From an uncultured virus (IMG/VR IMGVR_UViG_3300006127_000002) (Duplodnaviria > Heunggongvirae > Uroviricota > Caudoviricetes): a stretch of DNA of 20,000 nt. The position numbers and the translations under genes were made by a program. The notes beneath the pieces were generated by a model. That model worked only from the letters and a program-made list of their open reading frames with translations. It had not been told where the DNA came from and searched no databases. Shown piece by piece: positions 1 to 19,045 of this stretch (within the stretch, counting starts at the first letter, position 1; every line of letters starts with the position of its first letter). The DNA is taken from IMG/VR virus record IMGVR_UViG_3300006127_000002, one strand, 5' to 3'.

Positions 1-3000
1 GTTGATGAAGGAGAAGGACTTCAGCCAAGTGCATTAGCACCAGAAGTATCCGAAGTAGATGCAAAAGCTGCGCAGTTAAGAGAAGCTGAAATAAAGCTTG
101 TAGAAGCAGATACGCCTGAAATTAAGAAAGAAGCGCAGGTTGAAGTTAACAAGGCTAGACAAGAGCTAAAGAAGGCGGAAGCTAAACTAGAAAAAGCTGA
201 AACCACAACTGAGGTAACTCCAGTAACTGCAATACCAACCGCACCAGAAGAAGTTGCGGCTACCCCGCCAGTAGCCCAAGTTACACCAAAAAATGCGCAA
301 CAAGAAGAAGTTGCTCCCGCCACAGAAACCGCAATAAACCCATCAACTAAAAAATGGTTTGGTAATAGTAAAGCTGTAGATAGTGAGGGTAAACCATTAG
401 TTTTATATCGGGGGTTAGTAGGTGGGGCAGTTGACCCGTTTTCTGGGAGACCCGGATATGCAATTTTTACTTCAGACAACCCATACATAGCTTCGTCTTA
501 TGCAGGAGACCCTACCGCAGAATTTGGGGTAACTGGTGGGGTTGTATACCCCATGTACGCTAAAGTTGACAACGTAACTGAGTTTCAATTAGATAGGAAT
601 GGGTTATTTGATAAATTTGAATTCGATAAAAAAGCACGTACCTTAAAACCCGGAGAAGCATTAGTAGCCAGAAATGTAATGGATACTGGACCACGTATGT
701 CTTCAAGTATGGCGCAAGGATATGCCAAAAAAAGTGGGGATGTTTGGGCATTTGGTAACGGTACTAAATTTCAATCAGCTATAGCTGAGCCAGTTGTAGA
801 AAAGAAAGCAAGAACGCCGTTACAAAAAGCACAAGCAAAGACTGCTAATGCAGAAAGCCGATACGCAGACAAGCTAATAAGTGACCTTGCGGTTGAACCA
901 AACAATCTAGAAGAGGCCGAAAGCCTTGAGCAAGCTGCTTCTTGGGATAAAACAAATAAAACCCAACGTAACAATCTGGTTGAAGGTTTGGTTGAGCTTA
1001 CACAAAGACCTCACAAAGCGGCAAAAGAAAAAGCTGCCGCTGCACTGACTGCAAATAATGTAACCCCAGAAGAGGTAGCCCTAGCCAAGGATCGTATCGC
1101 TGCTAAGAAAAAAGCAAATATCCCGACGGTTCTTGAACAGCATAGGATTGATAATCCACCACGTAAACGGAAAGCAAAAGAACTTGCACCTAACGCCAAA
1201 TTATCAGATAGAGTTTCTCTTGCTGCGCAGTTAGTAGATTTGGTAAGGGGCGCTAGGCTTGCAGCTTATAAGACCGCAACGGCTGCTATAGATCATATAG
1301 TAAAGACCGGGAATGCTTTTGAAAGGACTCTTGCCCAACGCCTAAAACCATTCCTAAAAGATGTCAATTACATAGTTGCACAATCAGAAGCAGACTTACC
1401 TGATATCTCCCTGCGTGACGGACAAAGTTTAAAAGACAAGTTTAAAGACGCCAACGGTATTTACTTTACGACCGAAGATGGCAAAAAGTATTTGATTTTA
1501 CGGGGCGATAAGTTTGAAGGTGGTGGCGGGTTAACCTTTAAAACATTCCTGCATGAAGCCGTGCATGGTGCAACCATTGAGCAGATTGCAGAATACGAAA
1601 GAGCAGTTGCAGAAGGACTCCCAGTAGACCCACGCCTTGAACGGTTAATAACTGAGCTTAAAGATATCGTCGATGAGACGGCAGCAGCGTATACAGAAGC
1701 CAAAATGATGGGGCAAGAAGTCCCTGCTGCACTAGATAGATTGTTCTCTGCTCGCAAAAAAGGCGGCGTAGGCATATTAGACGACTTAAAAGAATTTGTT
1801 GCCTATGGTATGACTGAGCCTGATGTGCAAGAGTTCTTAGCTAATACCCAAGGTAAAGCAAAGCAAGGTGCGCCGGGGTTCTTTAAGAATCTGTTTACTA
1901 AATTTGTACGTGCGCTAGCTAACGCATTCGGTATGCCCGAAGGAAGTGTTAACGCTTTCCAAGACTTGATGCTTGTTACCGAAGGGCTGATGCAGTATAC
2001 GCCTAAAGATGTCAAGGCTGTAGAAGGTGCGGCAGAAAAACTTGATAAGGTTCAAGAAAAAGTAGATGCGGACCTAAAAAAGCTGGAGCTATCAAAAGAC
2101 GCTACGGAAATGACGGGGCTATTAGGTGGCCTTGCACGTTCACGTAATGCACAAGATTTTAATGACTTAATGAACGCCAGCCTCCCTGCTATGGGTAATG
2201 CGTTTATAACTAAGTTATTAGGTGCTATGCAATCGGTGGATATCGTGCGTTGGATGGGGGATAAGATACCTGCGCTTAAACGCATAGACGATACAACCCA
2301 ACATATGTCTGCAATGCGTATCAATATGCGGGCGGCTTTTTCTAAGAAGGCTGAACAAATAAGCAAGTTTATTCGTAGTGCTAAAAATGCTAAGAATACT
2401 CTTGCTGATGCCATGCACTTAGCTCGTCTAGTAGGTATAAGTCCTGTAGAACATGCGAATGCTAATGACGCTATTAAGAACGATAGCCAACTGAATTCCC
2501 TTAGGGCTACTCTAAATGACCCCAACATAAACGAAGCTACCCGTAAAGCTACCCAATCAGAAATAGATACTCGCACTGCAGGTATCCAAGAGGTCTATAA
2601 AAAATGGGATGCGCTAGGTGAGTTTAAGGGTGGACATGATATTTATAAAATGGTTCGTAAGTTCTACAAAGACAACTACGAATTAACTAGACATCTGCTT
2701 GACCGTAGAATCAACTCGATGCAAATTGAAGGCAGTATAAATGACCCTAATACGCCAAAAGGAAAGTTGATGGCAGCGGTTCGCCAAATGCAAGAAGAGG
2801 CGGATAAAAAGGGTGAGTACTTTCCATTTATGCGTGAAGGCAACTACTGGTTGCGGGTGAACGGACCTAAAGGTAGAGAATTTTATTTATTCGAATCTGG
2901 TACTGCACGTAACTTATTCTTGCTCAAACGTGCTAGAGATTTGGGCGTAGACAATAAGAGCGATATATTTAAAGCTGGCGACAACATGGGCGCATTGCGC

Positions 3001-5058
3001 AACGAATTCAGTGGCGAGAGTAAGATGCTAACTGATATGTTCTCTGCAATCGATGCGGCTACTGCAAAGACGGACTTTGATAAAGAAGCTCTTAAGGATC
3101 AGTTATACCAGACGTACTTGATGACTCTTCCAGAAAAGAGCTTCCGTAAGCAATTCTTACATGCTGACAAAGTAACTGGTTTCAGTTCGGATGTGTTGCG
3201 CAACTTTAAAGTATCTGCAACCCGTATGGCTAACCAAGCTGCTAAGTTGCGTTATGGTTCTGACCTAGAAAATGAATTGCAAAGCGGTCGTGACAACCTA
3301 GAAGGCATGCCCGCACAAGCTCGTGCTAAATATGAGCTGTTTATAAACGAGTTCAAGCAAAGAGCTATGCAAGAAATGAACCCTCCTGAGCAGGGCTTCT
3401 TAACAACGAAGATAAACCAATTTGCTTACTACTGGCTTCTTACCAGCGCAGCGTCTGCAGCTACGCAACTTGCGTCTGTCCCCATCATGGTTATGCCAAC
3501 ACTAAACCAACAGTATGGTTATGGCGCTGCCGCTAAGAAGTTTGCCAAGTACGCTAACATATTTAAAGCCGTTGGGGTTAACAAAGTAGAAGCTAACGGA
3601 GACGTTACCCATACATCACCTTCAATAGGTTCTTCTTCGATTGTTAGGGGTAGCGATCTAGCCCAACGTGCATTCCAAGAGGCGGTGGATAGAGGGCTTA
3701 CTACAACTACTAATACGTCTATCCTTACAAATCGTAACCGTACTCCGTCTAATATTGCAGAGAGCGTTGCCGGTGCAGCACTACAAAAGACTGCCCGTGT
3801 TATGTCTGCTTTGTTTAACGGAGCTGAACGTCTTAGCCGTGAAATGACTTACATGATGACGTTCGAGCTTGAATACGAAAAGACCAAAGACTTCGAAGCG
3901 TCGGTACAAAAAGCTATTGATACCACTCAAGAATTGCTAGGCCGTTACGACAACTTTAACCGTCCTCGCTATATGCAGAACTTTGTAGGTAAAACGCTTG
4001 GGCAGTTTAAGATGTATGCAGTTAACATGACTTCGTTCTTTGTACGTAATATGTACCACGCAATGAATGTGACTAATCCTAAGGAAATGCTGCCAGCTCT
4101 CCATCGCTTAAGTGGGGTACTGGTTATGGGTGGTATGTTCCACGGGTTAGTTGGTATGCCTCTGTACAGCACAATATGTGCAGCAATTGATGCCGCTATG
4201 GATATGTTTGGCGACGAAGAAGAAAAGAAAAAGCGCCGCCGCAAGAATCCGTTAACCGCTGATAATTCCGATTTACGGTTCCGTTATGAATTCTTACCAA
4301 AAATGTTCGGTACACCTACAATTACTGGGCTGGACGGTAAAGAGCATACACTAGCTAAAATATTAGAAAAAGGTGCAATTTCTGAGCTGACTGACATGAA
4401 CATCGGTTCACGTACCTCTTTTGATGGTTTATGGTTCCGTGGTGCAAAGGAAGGCAAAACTGCTTTAGAGACCGTACAGAACTATGTACTAGCTAACTTA
4501 GGCCCCGGTGTATCAACTGGTATTAATATGGTAGGGGCATTAGATGATTTCCATAACGGGCAGATATTGCGTGGGTTAGAGAAGCTCGTACCTGCGTTCT
4601 TCCGTGGTGCAGTAACTGCTGAGAGACTAAGAGAAGAGGGTGCTACAACCAAAACAGGATTGCCGGTACTAAAAAAAGACGAAATAACTCCAATTACATT
4701 AGCTGCTCAAACGCTAGGATTTCAAAGCACTCGATTATCTAGTCGCCAAGAGGCTAACTTCAATCTAATGAAAGAAGAGATAAAAGCCTCCAGAGAACGC
4801 ACGGATGTGCTTAAGCAATTAGACACAGCGCTGCTTGAAAAAAATAAAGATAACAAAGATATCCAAAAAGCAATTAATCAGATACGACAGTTTAATAATA
4901 GGTATCCCGCAGAGAAATATATTATTACGCCGGACACTATAACAAATTCTATCAAAGCCGCTGTGGAGAAAAGAGGGTTATCGTTCCACGGAATGCAGAT
5001 AGATAAAAAATTAGCTCCGTACCTGATACCAACGCTCAAGAACGCTTCTCCCAAATAA
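1..5058 (+). CDS. Large polyvalent (internal virion/ejection-type) protein, 5'-truncated; ART-PolyVal-like domain, HExxH zincin domain, PLxRFG-like region
   Basis: Frame 1 has no stop from base 1 (VDEGEGLQP...) through ATG 553 to TAA 5056-5058. Motifs: KKWFGNSKAVDSEGKPLVLYRG...IFTSDNPYIASSYA...GVVYPMY (349-558); TFLHEAVHG (HEAVH 1552-1566) with downstream KEFVAY; GEYFPFMREGNYW (about 2812-2850); helical C-terminus. Confidence 0.85.
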   Translation, partial: VDEGEGLQPSALAPEVSEVDAKAAQLREAEIKLVEADTPEIKKEAQVEVNKARQELKKAEAKLEKAETTTEVTPVTAIPTAPEEVAATPPVAQVTPKNAQQEEVAPATETAINPSTKKWFGNSKAVDSEGKPLVLYRGLVGGAVDPFSGRPGYAIFTSDNPYIASSYAGDPTAEFGVTGGVVYPMYAKVDNVTEFQLDRNGLFDKFEFDKKARTLKPGEALVARNVMDTGPRMSSSMAQGYAKKSGDVWAFGNGTKFQSAIAEPVVEKKARTPLQKAQAKTANAESRYADKLISDLAVEPNNLEEAESLEQAASWDKTNKTQRNNLVEGLVELTQRPHKAAKEKAAAALTANNVTPEEVALAKDRIAAKKKANIPTVLEQHRIDNPPRKRKAKELAPNAKLSDRVSLAAQLVDLVRGARLAAYKTATAAIDHIVKTGNAFERTLAQRLKPFLKDVNYIVAQSEADLPDISLRDGQSLKDKFKDANGIYFTTEDGKKYLILRGDKFEGGGGLTFKTFLHEAVHGATIEQIAEYERAVAEGLPVDPRLERLITELKDIVDETAAAYTEAKMMGQEVPAALDRLFSARKKGGVGILDDLKEFVAYGMTEPDVQEFLANTQGKAKQGAPGFFKNLFTKFVRALANAFGMPEGSVNAFQDLMLVTEGLMQYTPKDVKAVEGAAEKLDKVQEKVDADLKKLELSKDATEMTGLLGGLARSRNAQDFNDLMNASLPAMGNAFITKLLGAMQSVDIVRWMGDKIPALKRIDDTTQHMSAMRINMRAAFSKKAEQISKFIRSAKNAKNTLADAMHLARLVGISPVEHANANDAIKNDSQLNSLRATLNDPNINEATRKATQSEIDTRTAGIQEVYKKWDALGEFKGGHDIYKMVRKFYKDNYELTRHLLDRRINSMQIEGSINDPNTPKGKLMAAVRQMQEEADKKGEYFPFMREGNYWLRVNGPKGREFYLFESGTARNLFLLKRARDLGVDNKSDIFKAGDNMGALRNEFSGESKMLTDMFSAIDAATAKTDFDKEALKDQLYQTYLMTLPEKSFRKQFLHADKVTGFSSDVLRNFKVSATRMANQAAKLRYGSDLENELQSGRDNLEGMPAQARAKYELFINEFKQRAMQEMNPPEQGFLTTKINQFAYYWLLTSAASAATQLASVPIMVMPTLNQQYGYGAAAKKFAKYANIFKAVGVNKVEANGDVTHTSPSIGSSSIVRGSDLAQRAFQEAVDRGLTTTTNTSILTNRNRTPSNIAESVAGAALQKTARVMSALFNGAERLSREMTYMMTFELEYEKTKDFEASVQKAIDTTQELLGRYDNFNRPRYMQNFVGKTLGQFKMYAVNMTSFFVRNMYHAMNVTNPKEMLPALHRLSGVLVMGGMFHGLVGMPLYSTICAAIDAAMDMFGDEEEKKKRRRKNPLTADNSDLRFRYEFLPKMFGTPTITGLDGKEHTLAKILEKGAISELTDMNIGSRTSFDGLWFRGAKEGKTALETVQNYVLANLGPGVSTGINMVGALDDFHNGQILRGLEKLVPAFFRGAVTAERLREEGATTKTGLPVLKKDEITPITLAAQTLGFQSTRLSSRQEANFNLMKEEIKASRERTDVLKQLDTALLEKNKDNKDIQKAINQIRQFNNRYPAEKYIITPDTITNSIKAAVEKRGLSFHGMQIDKKLAPYLIPTLKNASPK

Positions 5059-16256: not shown

Positions 16257-16674
16257 TTTGCAGACTCAGTTTGGGGGAGGGGAAAGTTAACTCGTTCTCT
16301 AATATCCGCAACGCCTCGTTTGTTATGGACGCCATAGTCATAAGTTTAGTTGGATGCTTTATATTCTTTAGCGCTACCCCATCGCCTTCCTTCGGGTCTA
16401 GAATCTGCGACATAACATAGTCATCGAACGCCTTGCGCCTAATCTTGCTATACCCCTCAAAGAGTGCATCAAGTTCAGCCTGAGAAAAGCACGGCACTAT
16501 AGAGTTTGGGGGAAGCGAATTACCGATCTTACGGTTAACAATTCCTTCCATCACACCTTCAAATTTGGCAGATGCTCTTAGTGACCTGTGATCTTCCGGG
16601 CTAAAAAATTCTTCGGGGTTTGTTTCCATGCGCTGTAGAAGTATTTTTACTCCCGCGCTAAATTCTTCATTCAT
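16246..16674 (-). CDS. Hypothetical protein, PEEF-family paralog 3
   Basis: GVKILLQRMETNPEEFF; ATGA overlap with the VRR-NUC gene. Confidence 0.75.
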   Translation of the reverse strand: MNEEFSAGVKILLQRMETNPEEFFSPEDHRSLRASAKFEGVMEGIVNRKIGNSLPPNSIVPCFSQAELDALFEGYSKIRRKAFDDYVMSQILDPKEGDGVALKNIKHPTKLMTMASITNEALRILENELTFPSPKLSLQNDN

Positions 16675-16970
16675 AATAGTTGTAGTCCTTCTATGGTTTG
16701 CTCTAGCTCTGCTAGGTTATCTTCATTTACTACAAGCGCCGACCCCATTGCAGCACGTATCGCAGCTAACTCTCTATCTTGAAGTACTGTGGTCTTGCCT
16801 TTACCGGCCTTACATTCCACCGCTAAGAAATATCCATTGACACAACATATCAAATCGGGTATACCTGCCCTACCTAACCCATTCATACTCGGAGAGAAGT
16901 GCCAAACACCGTGCTTCTTGAATATGTCCTTACATTTCTGTTTGACCTTTGCTTCGGGGGTTGATGCCAT
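16671..16970 (-). CDS. VRR-NUC domain nuclease (Holliday junction resolvase-like)
   Basis: PEAKVK...AGIPDLICC...FLAVECKAG.GKTT.LQ..EL..I...G, a PD-(D/E)XK VRR-NUC pattern. Confidence 0.9.
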   Translation of the reverse strand: MASTPEAKVKQKCKDIFKKHGVWHFSPSMNGLGRAGIPDLICCVNGYFLAVECKAGKGKTTVLQDRELAAIRAAMGSALVVNEDNLAELEQTIEGLQLL

Positions 16971-16999
16971 TATATGATGTCTATTTTTACTTTGTCAAG
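16969..16999 (-). promoter_or_regulatory. Sigma70-type promoter (TTGACA-18 nt-TATAAT) with shared 16-bp motif
   Basis: TTGACA at 16993-16998 and TATAAT at 16969-16974; 16984-16999 is identical to 9753-9768. Confidence 0.6.
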
Positions 17000-17003
17000 G
17001 TGT

Positions 17004-17145
17004 GGGGGGTTATGTATATTCCACGCCCCCCTTCGTGTTAGGGAGTGGTGTAAGCAGACAAACTTCTTTACGCCTAGCAACTTACACCAACGCTACAGAA
17101 CACATATACAAGGCGTTACTGTTTGCGTAAATACCATGCTAGGCG
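17004..17145 (-). ncRNA. Candidate structured RNA: H-type pseudoknot followed by a G6/C6 hairpin
   Basis: Interleaved perfect 9-bp stems 17137-17145/17071-17079 and 17081-17089/17046-17054; hairpin 17004-17009/17026-17031; lies in the largest intergenic gap. Confidence 0.5.
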
Positions 17146-17148
17146 GCA

Positions 17149-17550
17149 TCAAAATAAACTTTTAAAGAACCCACCGACTTTCTGAAAGAATGATAGTTTC
17201 TGCTGCGGTAAAAAGTTAGGCAGTTCACGTTCCGGCAAAAAGTTGTGCATCTCGTAAGTTTGTCCGCTTACACCAGTAACCGTATGTTTTGGCTGCTCGC
17301 TCAGAGGGATATGCGGTGTTGTTTCTAACTTCTCAATCTTCTTTTGCAGACGGGCTTTCTTTATGCGTAACCTAGCCACGGCAGCTTTCTGCTGTACTTT
17401 CTTAGGCACTACACCTTTCTTATTTTGCGAGAGTATGTAGTACACATAATTCACACTTACACCCGTATCAAGCGCAACTGTTGACGGCTTTGCTTCTGGA
17501 TACTTAGCCATGTATTTACGAATCTTATCTGCTTTGTTTTGCTTCTTCAT
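17149..17550 (-). CDS. Basic HTH-containing protein
   Basis: KADKIRKYMAKYPEAKPSTVALDTGVSVNYVYYILS is HTH-like; ATGA overlap. Confidence 0.7.
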   Translation of the reverse strand: MKKQNKADKIRKYMAKYPEAKPSTVALDTGVSVNYVYYILSQNKKGVVPKKVQQKAAVARLRIKKARLQKKIEKLETTPHIPLSEQPKHTVTGVSGQTYEMHNFLPERELPNFLPQQKLSFFQKVGGFFKSLF

Positions 17551-17747
17551 TTTGTTTCCCTTCCTTCCATATAACCACGAATAAACCCTAACTCAAACGC
17601 CTTGCGTAATGTATAGATACCAAGCTCTTGTCCTGTCTCTTCTACAAACTGCTGCGCCCTAGTCGCCGCATGCAATGCACCTACTACCCTTGGTGCGTTA
17701 CGCATCCTTTCTTCCATCTCTTTAAACGCTTCATCCTCAGTCATCAT
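17547..17747 (-). CDS. Hypothetical protein
   Basis: MMTEDEAFKEME...; GGAG SD; ATGA overlap at 17744-17747. Confidence 0.7.
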   Translation of the reverse strand: MMTEDEAFKEMEERMRNAPRVVGALHAATRAQQFVEETGQELGIYTLRKAFELGFIRGYMEGRETK

Positions 17748-18426: not shown

Positions 18427-18662
18427 TTGAACACTCCATAAGCCCATGCAAAGTAGAGTATTGTGACGATACTAACAACTGTTATCGTCATCTTTGTTTT
18501 CCAATAAGTTGGTACTCTACCACCAAGTAGTGCATTTTGCAACCACATTTGGTCATTGTCAAGTGGAATATTTTTAGCGCTATAAGTTCCTTGGGTAGCC
18601 CTACGTTCAAACCACTTAGGTTCGTATGCAGAACCGATCTTTACTTTGCATTCTTGTTTCAT
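18423..18662 (-). CDS. Hypothetical protein with C-terminal TM helix
   Basis: ITVVSIVTILYFAWAYGVF hydrophobic tail; coupled to neighbours. Confidence 0.7.
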   Translation of the reverse strand: MKQECKVKIGSAYEPKWFERRATQGTYSAKNIPLDNDQMWLQNALLGGRVPTYWKTKMTITVVSIVTILYFAWAYGVFK

Positions 18663-19045
18663 TATTGCATCCTTACGTCTGGAATAATTGTTGATGGTTT
18701 AAACGTAACCCGGTAGTAATGGGGGCTTGCTTTGTTTGGGTCTAGCTGCTCTACAAAGTACGTCACGTTATCTGACAATCCAAGGAAATGCTTTTTATAT
18801 TCTGTCGCACCTACCTTGCAGATCACCGCAACTCTGCTTGGTTGTAGTAATGGTTCGATAGAGCATAGCCCTTCAATAGATAACAAATAATCACTTGTAA
18901 TGCCGTTATAAAACACAACCCTTCTGTTAACCTCAAAGTTGTCCGCCGCCTTGCTTAGATTTTGGGATACAACTCTTGCATCATCTGAGCATCCACTCAG
19001 TAAAGTTGTTGCCACTACGCTAGTAGCTATTAAAAACTTCTTCAT
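18662..19045 (-). CDS. Conserved phage lipoprotein
   Basis: Signal peptide II with lipobox LSGC; NLSKAADNFEVNRRVVFYNGIT...YKKHFLGLSDNVTYFVEQ; TAAGGA SD. Confidence 0.85.
   Translation of the reverse strand: MKKFLIATSVVATTLLSGCSDDARVVSQNLSKAADNFEVNRRVVFYNGITSDYLLSIEGLCSIEPLLQPSRVAVICKVGATEYKKHFLGLSDNVTYFVEQLDPNKASPHYYRVTFKPSTIIPDVRMQ

What the first reader, a model, noticed from the sequence alone, without database searches (positions are those of the whole stretch)
17046..17148. Intergenic H-type pseudoknot RNA candidate of unknown class
Seen on the - strand, 3 nt after the 17149 stop: S1 CGCCUAGCA (17145-17137) pairs with UGCUAGGCG (17079-17071). S2 UGGUGUAAG (17089-17081) pairs with CUUACACCA (17054-17046), with a 1-nt L2, which is classic coaxial H-type geometry. 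L1 holds a further helix (AACGC/GCGUU, partly competing with S2) and GCAAAC, which could pair with GUUUGU in L3. An alternative pairing, UUUACGC/GCGUAAA, competes with S1, suggesting a switch. Two interleaved perfect 9-bp stems in about 100 nt look non-random. Inference: an undescribed phage ncRNA (riboswitch-like leader, ribozyme, nuclease-resistant RNA or antitoxin-mimic sRNA) at the early/replication operon boundary.
Basis: partly seen in the sequence, partly recalled or inferred. Interest (0 to 1): 0.75.

Follow-up and report, generated by a model that had tools for sequence, protein, structure and literature searches.

The report
Conserved double-pseudoknot RNA in phages
The two interleaved stems are real and form part of a roughly 142-base, intricately folded RNA that dozens of uncultured phages keep just ahead of their DNA-replication genes; it matches no described RNA family and its job is still unknown.

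Summary
S1 (17145-17137/17079-17071) and S2 (17089-17081/17054-17046) are exact. Only 1 of 5000 shuffles of the spacer gives two interleaved 9-bp stems.

They belong to a ~142-nt element (17145-17004, minus strand) with six helices:
- pseudoknot S1/S2;
- hairpin P2 in its first loop;
- a second pseudoknot, PK2/P3;
- a P2-P3 kissing loop.

I found 76 distinct copies in viral and metagenome contigs. All stems differ in sequence yet stay complementary. Cognate arms beat non-cognate arms (p = 9e-24 for S1, 8e-23 for S2). Structure-blind alignments show 95-96% of cells paired, against 33-49% when the partners are slid. Seven virus records hold one copy each. None of the Rfam 15 searches gave a credible match.

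The element sits between early genes and the VRR-NUC-like/polymerase module. 41 of 76 copies have a ribosome-binding site about 13 nt downstream. In the window's clade a consensus sigma-70 promoter is inserted instead.

Function is inferred, not shown. A cis-acting leader or operator for the replication module is most likely (~0.35). Rivals are a stability element, a riboswitch and a trans-acting RNA.

One lead: the major-class loops resemble the two halves of the Cas12a crRNA handle.

The parts
17004..17145 (-). Whole conserved RNA element, from the S1 5' arm to the P3 3' arm (142 nt)
   Evidence: Covariance model R1, built from 10 relatives without the window, hits 17000-17148 (-) at 53.6 bits, E 3.6e-9.
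17137..17145 (-). S1 5' arm (CGCCUAGCA)
   Evidence: S1 covaries: C-G/U-A at one pair in A5. Cognate arms -20.1 vs non-cognate -12.7 kcal/mol, p 9e-24, 56 representatives.
17071..17079 (-). S1 3' arm (UGCUAGGCG)
17090..17128 (-). P2 hairpin inside loop 1 of the pseudoknot. Outer stem 17128-17125/17093-17090, middle 17122-17119/17098-17095, inner 17117-17114/17102-17099. Apical loop CUUGUAUAUG at 17112-17103.
   Evidence: MFE, RNAalifold. P2 pairs with double changes: 3 in A5 and 5 in A6. The loop was required by every pattern used to collect members, so its invariance is partly by construction.
17080..17089 (-). S2 5' arm (UGGUGUAAG plus U17080)
   Evidence: It abuts the S1 3' arm with no spacer in 24 of 25 members and 61 of 76.
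17046..17055 (-). S2 3' arm (G17055 plus CUUACACCA)
   Evidence: Two compensatory changes against L003. 2 covarying pairs in A5 and 3 in A6. Cognate vs non-cognate p 8e-23.
17056..17070 (-). L3, the variable linker between the S1 3' arm and the S2 3' arm
   Evidence: Length 8-15 nt in the 25 members; mostly 8-15 nt among the 76 elements, with outliers at 3, 7 and 25 nt. Sequence is not conserved.
17038..17045 (-). J5, a pyrimidine-rich linker (CUCCCUAA)
   Evidence: C/U-rich in most members. Pairing with the P3 5' arm was tested and shows no covariation (p 0.235).
17034..17037 (-). PK2 5' arm (CACG)
   Evidence: Pairs with CGUG in the P3 loop. 2 covarying pairs in A5. At least 15 different arm sequences across the family. 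Cognate vs non-cognate p 3e-17.
17026..17031 (-). P3 5' arm (GGGGGG)
   Evidence: Variants in relatives include GAGGGG/CCCCUC, GAUGGG/CCCAUC, GGUGGG/CCCACC and GGCGGG/CCCGCC.
17022..17025 (-). PK2 3' arm (CGUG), directly 3' of the P3 5' arm
   Evidence: No spacer between the two in 73 of 76 members.
17014..17019 (-). Loop 2 kissing sequence (AUAUAC), complementary to GUAUAU at 17109-17104 in the P2 loop
   Evidence: The centre pair across 76 members is G-C 43, U-A 24, A-U 3, U.U 4, U.C 2. The other five pairs are invariant, partly because the search patterns required them.
17004..17009 (-). P3 3' arm (CCCCCC)
   Evidence: Here it is followed by ACACC and then the -35 box, with no U-run.
16969..16998 (-). 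Sigma-70 consensus promoter, TTGACA-18-TATAAT. The -10 overlaps the ATG at 16970.
   Evidence: 12 of 12 consensus positions. A promoter-like site lies between P3 and the downstream gene in 18 of 19 members of clades A and C.
16671..16970 (-). Downstream gene, a VRR-NUC-like nuclease (99 aa)
   Evidence: PHROG 93 'endonuclease', E 2.9e-17. No Pfam hit at E 0.001. Relatives of its L355 homologue are annotated as VRR-NUC or Holliday-junction resolvase.
17149..17550 (-). Upstream gene (133 aa, no family hit). Its stop codon ends 3 nt before S1.
17256..17275 (-). Lineage-specific 20-nt complement of 17065-17046 inside the upstream ORF. It competes with S2.
   Evidence: 20/20 pairs (one G-U) in the window and 17/20 in L003. 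Duplex -32.9 kcal/mol, matched by 0 of 200 shuffles. Seen only in the window lineage, out of 24 members tested.

Best explanation
What it is (near certain). The stems belong to a genuine, conserved, ~142-nt structured RNA, read on the same strand as the genes. Its architecture has six helices:
- S1 and S2 form an H-type pseudoknot. S2-5' stacks directly on S1-3'.
- A hairpin, P2, sits in loop 1 of that pseudoknot.
- A pyrimidine-rich linker, J5, follows.
- A second H-type pseudoknot, PK2/P3, comes next.
- The P3 loop base-pairs with the P2 loop (a kissing loop).

What it most likely does (inferred). It is a cis-acting leader or operator on the early transcript. It sits at the entry to the VRR-NUC-like/DNA-polymerase module and sets how much of that module is expressed from read-through early mRNA.
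- In most members a Shine-Dalgarno site lies about 13 nt 3' of P3 and the start codon about 24 nt. A rigid fold there, alone or held by a phage or host protein as in the T4 gene 32 pseudoknot operator, would gate 30S loading.
- In the window's clade a consensus sigma-70 promoter has been inserted between the element and a leaderless or overlapping start. There the element would act only on read-through transcripts, or as the structured 3' end of the early operon.
For: Shown:
- Exact stems in the window. 1 of 5000 shuffles reproduces two interleaved 9-bp helices.
- R1, trained without the window, finds it at E 3.6e-9.
- Structure-blind alignments: 94.9% and 96.3% of cells paired against 33-49% when slid; 8 pairs with double changes in each; 0 of 500 shuffles reach the covariation score.
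- My architecture detector finds 76 unique elements. For 56 representatives, cognate arms pair better than non-cognate arms: S1 9e-24, S2 8e-23, PK2 3e-17, P3 5e-9.
- The kissing-loop centre pair takes three Watson-Crick forms in 70 of 76 members. None of 29 pattern hits carrying the seven mismatched letter pairs in which no member was found is a member.
- G-U exceeds A-C (25 vs 12 and 11 vs 4), which favours the gene-sense strand.
- One copy per record in 7 virus records.

Context:
- The element lies between early genes and the VRR-NUC-like to PolA array.
- 46 of 76 have a VRR-NUC-like start within 110 nt.
- 41 of 76 have an SD plus start within 70 nt. The median distance is 13 nt from P3 to the SD and 24 nt from P3 to the start.

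Inferred only: that it acts on translation or read-through, and that a protein partner exists.
Against: - No transcript data, so the RNA, its ends and any processing are unseen.
- In 31 of 76 members, including this window, a promoter(-like) site lies between the element and the gene. In clades A and C the start lies 5-7 nt after the -10, which suggests a leaderless mRNA. A transcript from that promoter lacks the element.
- In the window the -10 overlaps the ATG.
- Downstream genes are not uniform. In 30 of 76 no VRR-NUC-like start lies within 110 nt, and clade B has unrelated small ORFs.
- The one alternative pairing that could make a switch, J5 with the P3 5' arm, shows no covariation (p 0.235).
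- The SD itself is outside every supported helix.
- The near-invariant 10-nt loops suggest sequence-specific recognition that a purely steric operator does not require.
- Six of 76 members carry U.U or U.C at the kissing-loop centre.
Confidence: 0.35

Rival explanations
1. RNA stability, processing or insulator module. The compact knot is the protected 3' end (or a defined processing site) of the early operon. It shields early mRNA from 3' exonucleases and separates early transcription from replication-gene transcription.
For: It begins within about 20 nt of the stop codon of the preceding ORF, or overlaps it, in the loci with long flanks (offsets -22 to +37, mostly -1 to -9). In clades A and C a fresh promoter follows it in 18 of 19 members. 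In some members P3 is followed by a U-run, like a terminator (12 of 76).
Against: Only 12 of 76 have a U-run after P3, and the window has none. Ordinary terminator hairpins do this job in related loci (L005, L009, L019, L064), so six covarying helices and invariant loops look excessive. In 41 of 76 the next gene's SD follows within 70 nt with no promoter, so transcription evidently continues.
Confidence: 0.2
2. Small-molecule or ion riboswitch. The double-pseudoknot and kissing-loop fold is an aptamer, and ligand binding changes translation or termination of the replication module.
For: The complexity is typical of aptamers: multiple pseudoknots, a loop-loop contact, invariant unpaired nucleotides and fully variable stems. 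What follows varies between members, as expression platforms do: a U-run, an SD or a promoter.
Against: No alternative (anti-terminator or anti-SD) pairing is supported. The conserved nucleotides are almost all in the two mutually complementary loops, not in junctions. The neighbouring genes (nuclease, polymerase, small unknown ORFs) point to no metabolite. There is no Rfam match.
Confidence: 0.15
3. Trans-acting non-coding RNA released from the early transcript. It could be a protein sponge or decoy, or a self-assembling RNA whose two complementary loops pair between molecules rather than within one.
For: The loops are 9-10 nt, nearly invariant and exposed, while every stem varies freely. That pattern fits a sequence-specific partner. 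The element keeps its form whether an SD, a promoter or unrelated genes follow. It is single-copy and lies in the early region. Major-class loop 1 is identical to the 3' nine bases of a printed Cas12a crRNA handle.
Against: No promoter of its own was seen upstream; an ORF runs up to it. No terminator follows in most members. No expression data. Intra- and intermolecular loop pairing cannot be told apart by covariation.
Confidence: 0.13
4. Self-cleaving ribozyme that cuts the polycistronic early/replication transcript.
For: Nested pseudoknots plus a tertiary loop-loop contact in about 140 nt resemble the general build of small self-cleaving ribozymes (recalled, not tested). The intercistronic position would suit processing.
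Against: No match to any ribozyme family in Rfam 15, even at permissive E-values. Apart from the two complementary loops there is no strictly conserved junction core of the kind catalytic sites show.
Confidence: 0.06
5. DNA-level element, such as an origin of replication or a single-strand initiation site next to the replication genes. The stems would be DNA hairpins or protein-binding inverted repeats.
For: It lies at the head of the replication module beside a strong promoter. Inverted repeats in DNA covary symmetrically too.
Against: G-U pairs outnumber A-C (36 vs 16 cells), so the pairing is strand-specific and wobble-tolerant. The arms are 25-60 nt apart and interleaved, unlike operator palindromes. 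The cumulative GC-skew extremes in two complete genomes lie at the gene-strand switch (29 kb and 41 kb), not at the element (15.9 kb and 54.7 kb).
Confidence: 0.05

Closest known systems
T4 gene 32 mRNA pseudoknot translational operator. Recalled from general knowledge; its existence 5' of gp32 genes is also stated in a passage of PMC10690425.
   Same: A phage H-type pseudoknot placed 5' of the ribosome-binding site of a replication or recombination gene, followed by an unstructured A-rich stretch that holds the SD.
   Different: The present element is about 142 nt, with two pseudoknots, an embedded hairpin and a kissing loop. There is no sequence similarity, the protein partner is unknown, and in 31 of 76 members a promoter(-like) site separates it from the gene.
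Pseudoknotted riboswitch aptamers and loop-loop ligand sensors (recalled classes; no member matched)
   Same: Compact multi-helix folds with pseudoknots, invariant unpaired bases and freely covarying stems. Downstream expression signals vary between members.
   Different: No Rfam family matches. No supported alternative pairing. No metabolic gene association. The ligand cannot be tested here.
RNA anti-CRISPRs / solitary repeat units that mimic type V-A repeats (RacrVA1-3; passages of PMC10651486) and viral crRNA-like RNAs (abstract of bioRxiv 10.1101/2024.10.29.618823)
   Same: Small phage-encoded RNA in an early, anti-defence-type position. Major-class loop 1 (CUUGUAGAU) equals the last nine bases of the Cas12a crRNA handle AAUUUCUACUCUUGUAGAU printed in PMC12715751 Table 1. 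Loop 2 (AAUCUAC) carries the other strand of that handle's stem.
   Different: The repeat-like halves sit in two separate loops about 85 nt apart and would have to join by kissing. Two U of the handle are missing. No promoter lies immediately upstream. The window's own class has U-A rather than G-C at the centre pair. Nothing was tested.
phi29-type packaging RNA (recalled)
   Same: A phage RNA whose function depends on two complementary loops that covary between relatives.
   Different: A different genome type and position: here the early/replication boundary of ~64-67-kb genomes, not next to packaging genes. There is no similarity, and intermolecular pairing is untested.
Catalogue of 8495 candidate structured RNAs from IMG/VR (PMC10690425; abstract, passages and three tables read)
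   Same: The same data source (IMG/VR intergenic regions) and the same kind of object. A fragment of this motif could be among them, since their maximum length is 151 nt.
   Different: I found no entry. 'VRR', the loop motif and two UViG numbers gave no hit in supplementary files 3, 5 and 6, and six UViG numbers gave none in file 4. The alignment archives (mmc4, mmc5) could not be read, so prior listing is not excluded.

Membership tests
Any Rfam 15 family | A covariance-model match at or near the family's gathering score | tested here: not met
   Window 16500-17700 at E up to 10: one irrelevant 14-bit hit elsewhere. Seven member loci at gathering score: 0 hits. Eighteen major-class members at E up to 1: one 22-bit snoRNA chance hit.
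H-type RNA pseudoknot (structural class) | Two helices whose arms interleave, a short or absent loop 2, and crossing loops long enough to span the helices | tested here: met
   The order is S1-5', S2-5', S1-3', S2-3'. The spacer is 0 nt in 61 of 76 members and 1 nt in 15 of 76. Loop 1 is 42-66 nt and loop 3 mostly 8-15 nt.
H-type RNA pseudoknot (structural class) | Both helices maintained by compensatory change | tested here: met
   (double changes in S1 and S2); cognate vs non-cognate p 9e-24 (S1) and 8e-23 (S2).
Intrinsic (Rho-independent) terminator | A G+C-rich hairpin immediately followed by a U-run | tested here: not met
   In the window P3 is followed by ACACCUUGAC, and the terminator scan reports nothing there. 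Across the family, 12 of 76 have at least 6 T in the 12 nt after P3.
Riboswitch | Mutually exclusive pairing between the aptamer and an expression platform | tested here: not met
J5 with the P3 5' arm: cognate -6.2 vs non-cognate -5.9 kcal/mol, p 0.235.
Riboswitch | Specific ligand binding | not testable with these tools
   Needs in-line probing or ITC.
Protein-bound translational operator (T4 gene 32 type) | A structured element just 5' of the SD and start of the regulated gene | tested here: inconclusive
   Met in 41 of 76 members (median 13 nt from P3 to the SD). Not met in the window or in 31 of 76, where a promoter(-like) site intervenes.
Protein-bound translational operator (T4 gene 32 type) | Binding by the product of the regulated gene, or another protein | not testable with these tools
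   The complex predictor takes proteins only. EMSA is needed.
RNA anti-CRISPR (solitary repeat unit, type V-A) | A contiguous copy of a CRISPR repeat hairpin downstream of its own promoter | tested here: not met
   The repeat-like halves are split between the P2 and P3 loops. An ORF, not a promoter, lies directly upstream.
RNA anti-CRISPR (solitary repeat unit, type V-A) | Inhibition of Cas12a, or binding to it | not tested
   Needs phage or plasmid interference assays, or binding assays.
VRR-NUC nuclease (downstream gene, context only) | A profile match to the family | tested here: inconclusive
   PHROG 93 'endonuclease', E 2.9e-17. Pfam gives no hit at E 0.001. tblastn relatives of the L355 homologue carry VRR-NUC annotations.

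The most novel reading that the evidence does not exclude
The two near-invariant loops are the business end. When they kiss, they rebuild in trans a look-alike of the type V-A (Cas12a) crRNA handle.
- Major-class loop 1, CUUGUAGAU, is identical to the 3' nine bases of the handle printed in PMC12715751.
- Loop 2, AAUCUAC, supplies the opposite stem strand.
- The surrounding double pseudoknot is a scaffold that presents this mimic.

On this reading the element is a new, structurally assembled kind of RNA anti-CRISPR, or a Cas12a-hijacking RNA, made early in infection. The covarying centre pair (G-C, U-A, A-U) would track different host repeat variants.
Probability: 0.07. Interest if true: 0.92.

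Novelty: new variant of a known kind. Interest (0 to 1): 0.75.

Why it matters
A ~142-nt RNA with two pseudoknots and a covarying kissing loop has the structural complexity usually seen in riboswitches, ribozymes and other RNAs with a demanding function. Here it is single-copy, found as 76 distinct sequences in uncultured ~64-67-kb phages and other viral contigs, and absent from Rfam 15.

If it controls entry into the replication module, it would be a new phage gene-timing device. If it binds a protein or ligand, it is a new recognition fold.

It is short enough for probing, crystallography or cryo-EM, and there is enough natural covariation to design clean compensatory mutants. The resemblance of its loops to the Cas12a crRNA handle, if functional, would extend RNA-based anti-CRISPRs to a split, scaffolded architecture.

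Tried and rejected
- **Expression.** The look-up of sequencing runs listed 14 DNA runs and no RNA holder.
- **Known families.** Rfam searches and ARAGORN on 8 loci found nothing relevant.
- **INPHARED phages.** blastn of the 1-kb region gave no match. The nearest cultured phages by PolA or VRR-NUC are only 31-41% identical. I looked at 2 of the 40 VRR-NUC hits. Pseudomonas phage Rollin has an unannotated ORF in the gap, and Rhizobium phage RHph_TM3_14A has no gap. Neither has the element.
- **Species genomes.** The genome contigs pattern scan gave 12 loci, and 0 were confirmed by R1.
- **Anti-terminator idea (J5 pairs with the P3 5' arm).** Several by-eye compensations looked promising, but there is no covariation overall (p 0.235). 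Dropped.
- **Terminator reading of P3.** Only 12 of 76 have a U-run.
- **Origin reading.** The GC-skew extremes lie elsewhere.
- **Small peptide in the element.** ATGGUA is conserved, but the reading frame relative to the invariant loop differs between L043 and L012 (my reading). Not a conserved ORF.
Not conserved.
- **Long-range helix 17275-17256 with 17065-17046.** Real in the window lineage only, so it is not a family feature.
- **Methods that failed.** Per-sequence duplexfold with bulges ran S1 into S2 and was uninformative. The R1-guided alignment A7 misaligned divergent members and was not used for counts. R1 misses L069 at E up to 1 and scores L118 and L139 only at E 1.1 and 0.18 with filters off. 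I did not run R1 on the 116 loci.
- **Upstream stop-codon offsets.** For loci with 120-nt flanks these are unreliable, because a 20-codon open frame arises by chance.
- **Literature.** The first two of five full-text searches looked for a prior description of the motif and found none. The other three concerned the Cas12a lead or returned Cas12a guide papers. The alignment archives of PMC10690425 were unreadable.
- **Earlier findings of this scan.** None.
Full report
**1. The observation**

On the minus strand the spacer between the ORF ending at 17149 and the ORF starting at 16970 is 178 nt. The stems are exactly as described:
- S1 is 17145-17137 with 17079-17071.
- S2 is 17089-17081 with 17054-17046.
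- Each is nine perfect pairs, and the arms interleave.
- The single base between S2-5' and S1-3' (U17080) can pair with G17055. That makes S2 10 bp and lets it abut S1 directly.

Nested folding cannot see a pseudoknot and is unremarkable: z = -1.40, and 19 of 200 shuffles fold as well. A direct test is more telling. Of 5000 dinucleotide shuffles of the spacer, 291 contain a perfect 9-bp helix and only 1 contains two interleaved ones.

**2. Surroundings in the window**

- The window carries a phage replication module on the minus strand:
  - a PHROG-93 endonuclease (VRR-NUC-like, 16970-16671);
  - family A DNA polymerase (15837-14011);
  - a PD-(D/E)XK exonuclease;
  - an SNF2 helicase;
  - a DUF927 primase/helicase.
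- Upstream of the spacer lie small ORFs without family hits.
- A perfect sigma-70 consensus (TTGACA-18-TATAAT, 12 of 12 positions) lies at 16998-16969. Its -10 overlaps the ATG of the nuclease gene.
- Rfam 15 at E up to 10 gives nothing in the spacer.
- The INPHARED phage collection has no nucleotide match.

**3. Relatives**

*How members were collected.*
- The nuclease protein retrieved 558 related viral loci, of which 80 were kept. The upstream 133-aa protein retrieved only the same phage and one relative.
- blastn of the spacer against these loci showed that the whole spacer is conserved in L003 at 87.5% identity. The 3' third is conserved in several loci whose nuclease is only 60-70% identical.
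- Reading those loci showed that the entire element is conserved in architecture, from the stop codon of the upstream gene to a G-run/C-run hairpin. Two loop sequences are invariant while the stems differ.
- Pattern scans built on the two loops then collected further members:

| Scan | Loci returned | Members |
|---|---|---|
| Viral, strict pattern | 13 | all 13 |
| Metagenome | 59 | 19 (15 by model R1, 4 by architecture) |
| One-genome-per-species collection | 12 | 0 confirmed |
| Viral, second pattern | 24 | 8 new |
| Three loop-variant scans | 17 + 13 + 7 | see kissing loop, section 4 |

*Checks on membership.*
- Covariance model R1 was built from ten clade-A sequences without the window. 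It finds the window at 17000-17148 (-), 53.6 bits, E 3.6e-9. It finds none of the chance pattern hits.
- It also found L068, which no pattern had required.
- My architecture detector uses loops with a free centre letter plus minimum S1, S2, PK2 and P3 helices. It finds 76 distinct elements, 133-156 nt long (median 142), in all fetched loci.

**4. Structure and its support**

*The six helices (window coordinates).*
- S1.
- P2, a three-part hairpin at 17128-17090 whose apical loop is CUUGUAUAUG.
- S2.
- PK2, 17037-17034 with 17025-17022.
- P3, 17031-17026 with 17009-17004.
- A loop-loop helix, 17109-17104 with 17019-17014.

*Structure-blind MAFFT alignments.*

| Alignment | Cells paired | Paired when slid | Pairs with double changes | Shuffles reaching the covariation score |
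|---|---|---|---|---|
| A5 (10 rows) | 94.9% | 33-46% | 8 | 0 of 500 |
| A6 (6 rows) | 96.3% | 33-49% | 8 | 0 of 500 |

S2 has 2 and 3 covarying pairs in the two alignments. S1 has 1. PK2 has 2. P2 has 3 and 5.

*Window against L003.* All 10 S2 pairs are kept, with two double changes. S1 loses its terminal pair. With only two rows the shuffle control is weak: 73 of 500 shuffles reach the observed score.

*An alignment-free test.* I took windows defined only by their distance from the loops. I then compared duplex energies of arms from the same element with arms from different elements, over 56 representatives. A pilot on 12 representatives agreed.

| Helix | Cognate (kcal/mol) | Non-cognate (kcal/mol) | p |
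|---|---|---|---|
| S1 | -20.1 | -12.7 | 9e-24 |
| S2 | -18.7 | -11.4 | 8e-23 |
| PK2 | -6.5 | -3.6 | 3e-17 |
| P3 | -14.1 | -11.8 | 5e-9 |

*Geometry.*
- S2-5' abuts S1-3' with no spacer in 61 of 76 members and 1 nt in 15 of 76.
- PK2-3' follows P3-5' directly in 73 of 76.
- One or two nucleotides separate PK2-5' from P3-5' in 58 of 76.
- Both knots therefore have classical H-type geometry.

*Kissing loop.*
- Five of its six pairs are invariant. The search patterns required them, so they carry no test.
- The centre pair is G-C in 43, U-A in 24 (the window's class), A-U in 3, U.U in 4 and U.C in 2 of 76 members.
- In the free-centre scan, the 29 hits carrying the seven mismatched letter pairs in which no member was found included no member.
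- The six mismatched members all belong to one clade (S1 GUCGGGC/GCCCGAC).
- I therefore rate the loop-loop contact as well supported but not universal.

*Strand.* G-U cells outnumber A-C cells, 25 to 12 and 11 to 4. The element is always co-oriented with the flanking genes.

**5. Distribution and context**

- Seven virus records hold exactly one copy each. Five of them are 96-100% complete and 42-67 kb long.
- In two complete genomes the element lies 12-16 kb from a genome end, inside a 25-kb co-directional array. Early genes lie before it and the nuclease-to-polymerase genes after it.
- The preceding ORF ends within about 20 nt of S1, or runs into the element, in the loci with long flanks.
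- The upstream gene varies: a BrnA/RHH-like protein, an HTH protein homologous to the window's 133-aa ORF, or others.
- Downstream:
  - 46 of 76 have a VRR-NUC-like start (M..TPE) within 110 nt.
  - 41 of 76 have an SD plus start within 70 nt. The median distance is 13 nt from P3 to the SD and 24 nt to the start.
  - 31 of 76 have a sigma-70(-like) promoter instead. Among the clade A and C members read, the -10 box usually lies 5-7 nt before the start, which suggests a leaderless mRNA.
  - 4 of 76 have neither.
- A U-run follows P3 in only 12 of 76.
- The nearest cultured phages (Rhizobium RHph_TM3_14A, Pseudomonas phiR18, KPP25 and Rollin) share 31-41% protein identity. The two whose VRR-NUC regions I inspected, RHph_TM3_14A and Rollin, lack the element.

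**6. How it most likely works**

*Shown.*
- It is a conserved, strand-specific, single-copy, highly structured element.
- It sits at the early/replication boundary.
- In the majority it lies immediately 5' of a ribosome-binding site.

*Inferred.*
- My preferred reading (about 0.35) is a cis-acting leader or operator on read-through early mRNA. A rigid double knot 13 nt from the SD could gate 30S access. It could do so by itself or when bound by a protein, as in the T4 gene 32 operator.
- In the window's clade the inserted promoter means it can act only on read-through transcripts, or serve as the 3' cap of the early operon.

*Against this reading.*
- The promoters.
- The non-uniform downstream genes.
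- No supported alternative pairing.
- No transcript data.

*Rivals.*
- Stability or processing module: 0.20.
- Riboswitch: 0.15.
- Trans-acting or multimerising RNA: 0.13.
- Ribozyme: 0.06.
- DNA-level element: 0.05. It is disfavoured by the G-U excess and by GC skew.

**7. Comparison with what is known**

- None of the four Rfam 15 searches gave a credible match. The only rows were chance-level (a 14-bit hit at E 4.2, two hits at E 0.64 and 0.88, and a 22-bit snoRNA hit at E 0.62) and lay elsewhere in the searched stretches.
- The first two of my five full-text searches looked for a prior description of the motif and found none. The other three served the Cas12a lead below.
- The IMG/VR catalogue of candidate structured RNAs (PMC10690425; I read the abstract, passages and three tables) gave no hit for the loop motif, 'VRR' or the contig numbers I searched. 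Its alignment archives could not be read, so prior listing of part of the motif is not excluded.
- The element works like known pseudoknot leaders, but it fails or cannot be given the membership tests for a terminator, a riboswitch or a solitary-repeat anti-CRISPR.

**8. A lead**

- In the major class loop 1 reads CUUGUAGAU and loop 2 reads AAUCUAC.
- The first is identical to the last nine bases of the Cas12a crRNA handle printed in PMC12715751 Table 1. The second supplies the opposite strand of that handle's stem.
- RNA anti-CRISPRs that mimic type V-A repeats are documented (passages of PMC10651486; abstract of bioRxiv 10.1101/2024.10.29.618823).
- A kissing complex that rebuilds such a handle would explain why the loops are invariant while everything else drifts.
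- The halves are split, two U are missing, and the window's own class differs at the centre pair. Nothing was tested. I give it about 0.07.

**9. Verdict**

- The object is a new family of structured phage RNA with unknown function.
- Interest: 0.75.

Noticed in passing
window 16969-16998 (-) and 16970: The perfect sigma-70 consensus promoter has a -10 (TATAAT) that overlaps the ATG of the nuclease gene. A transcript from it would start inside the ORF. Relatives have the -10, then 5-7 nt, then ATG, which suggests leaderless mRNAs.
   Followed up: partly
window 17256-17275 (-) with 17046-17065 (-): A 20-nt stretch inside the upstream ORF is fully complementary (one G-U) to L3 plus the S2 3' arm, and would compete with S2. 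It is 17/20 in L003, with one compensatory change. It is absent from the 22 other members tested.
   Followed up: yes
L207 ~60-560 and L215 (IMG/VR contigs): The ~480 nt directly 5' of the element have no credible ORF. They are about 97% identical between two loci whose elements are only about 60% alike. They fold with z = -4.3 and have no Rfam hit. This is a candidate large non-coding RNA or a mobile non-coding insert.
   Followed up: partly
window 16992-17020 (+): A promoter-like site on the opposite strand (TTGTCA-17-TATATT, 10 of 12 positions) has its -10 in the P3 loop. It would give an antisense transcript across the element. The spacing is not kept in relatives, by my reading.
   Followed up: no
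L090/L092/L115, just 3' of P3: Three tandem copies of CAUUUAACCCCC follow the P3 3' arm. They offer three alternative C-runs for the G-run.
   Followed up: no
window 1-5058 (+): A very large ORF (more than 1685 aa, open at the window edge) matches DarB-like antirestriction PHROG 10089 (E 2.6e-52) and Pfam LPD39. It is transcribed opposite to the replication genes.
   Followed up: no
window 18662-19045 (-): A 127-aa ORF gives a strong match to PHROG 478 'recombination directionality factor' and Pfam Phage_VG64 (E about 1e-52), among the early genes.
   Followed up: no
L220, L224, L226, L230, L231, L271, L290: One clade (S1 GUCGGGC/GCCCGAC) carries U.U or U.C at the centre of the kissing helix. 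In this clade loop 2 changed without compensation in loop 1.
   Followed up: yes
L068 2045-2189: Here the upstream 112-aa ORF runs through S1 and P2. It stops at a UAA created by the U-to-A change in loop 1, so the 5' half of the element is also coding.
   Followed up: partly
3' of P3 in many members (e.g. L182, L207, L220, L359): A short conserved tail of the form AC-pyrimidines-UA-(A/U)-UAAC follows P3 in several clades, before the SD or promoter. It may belong to the motif.
   Followed up: no
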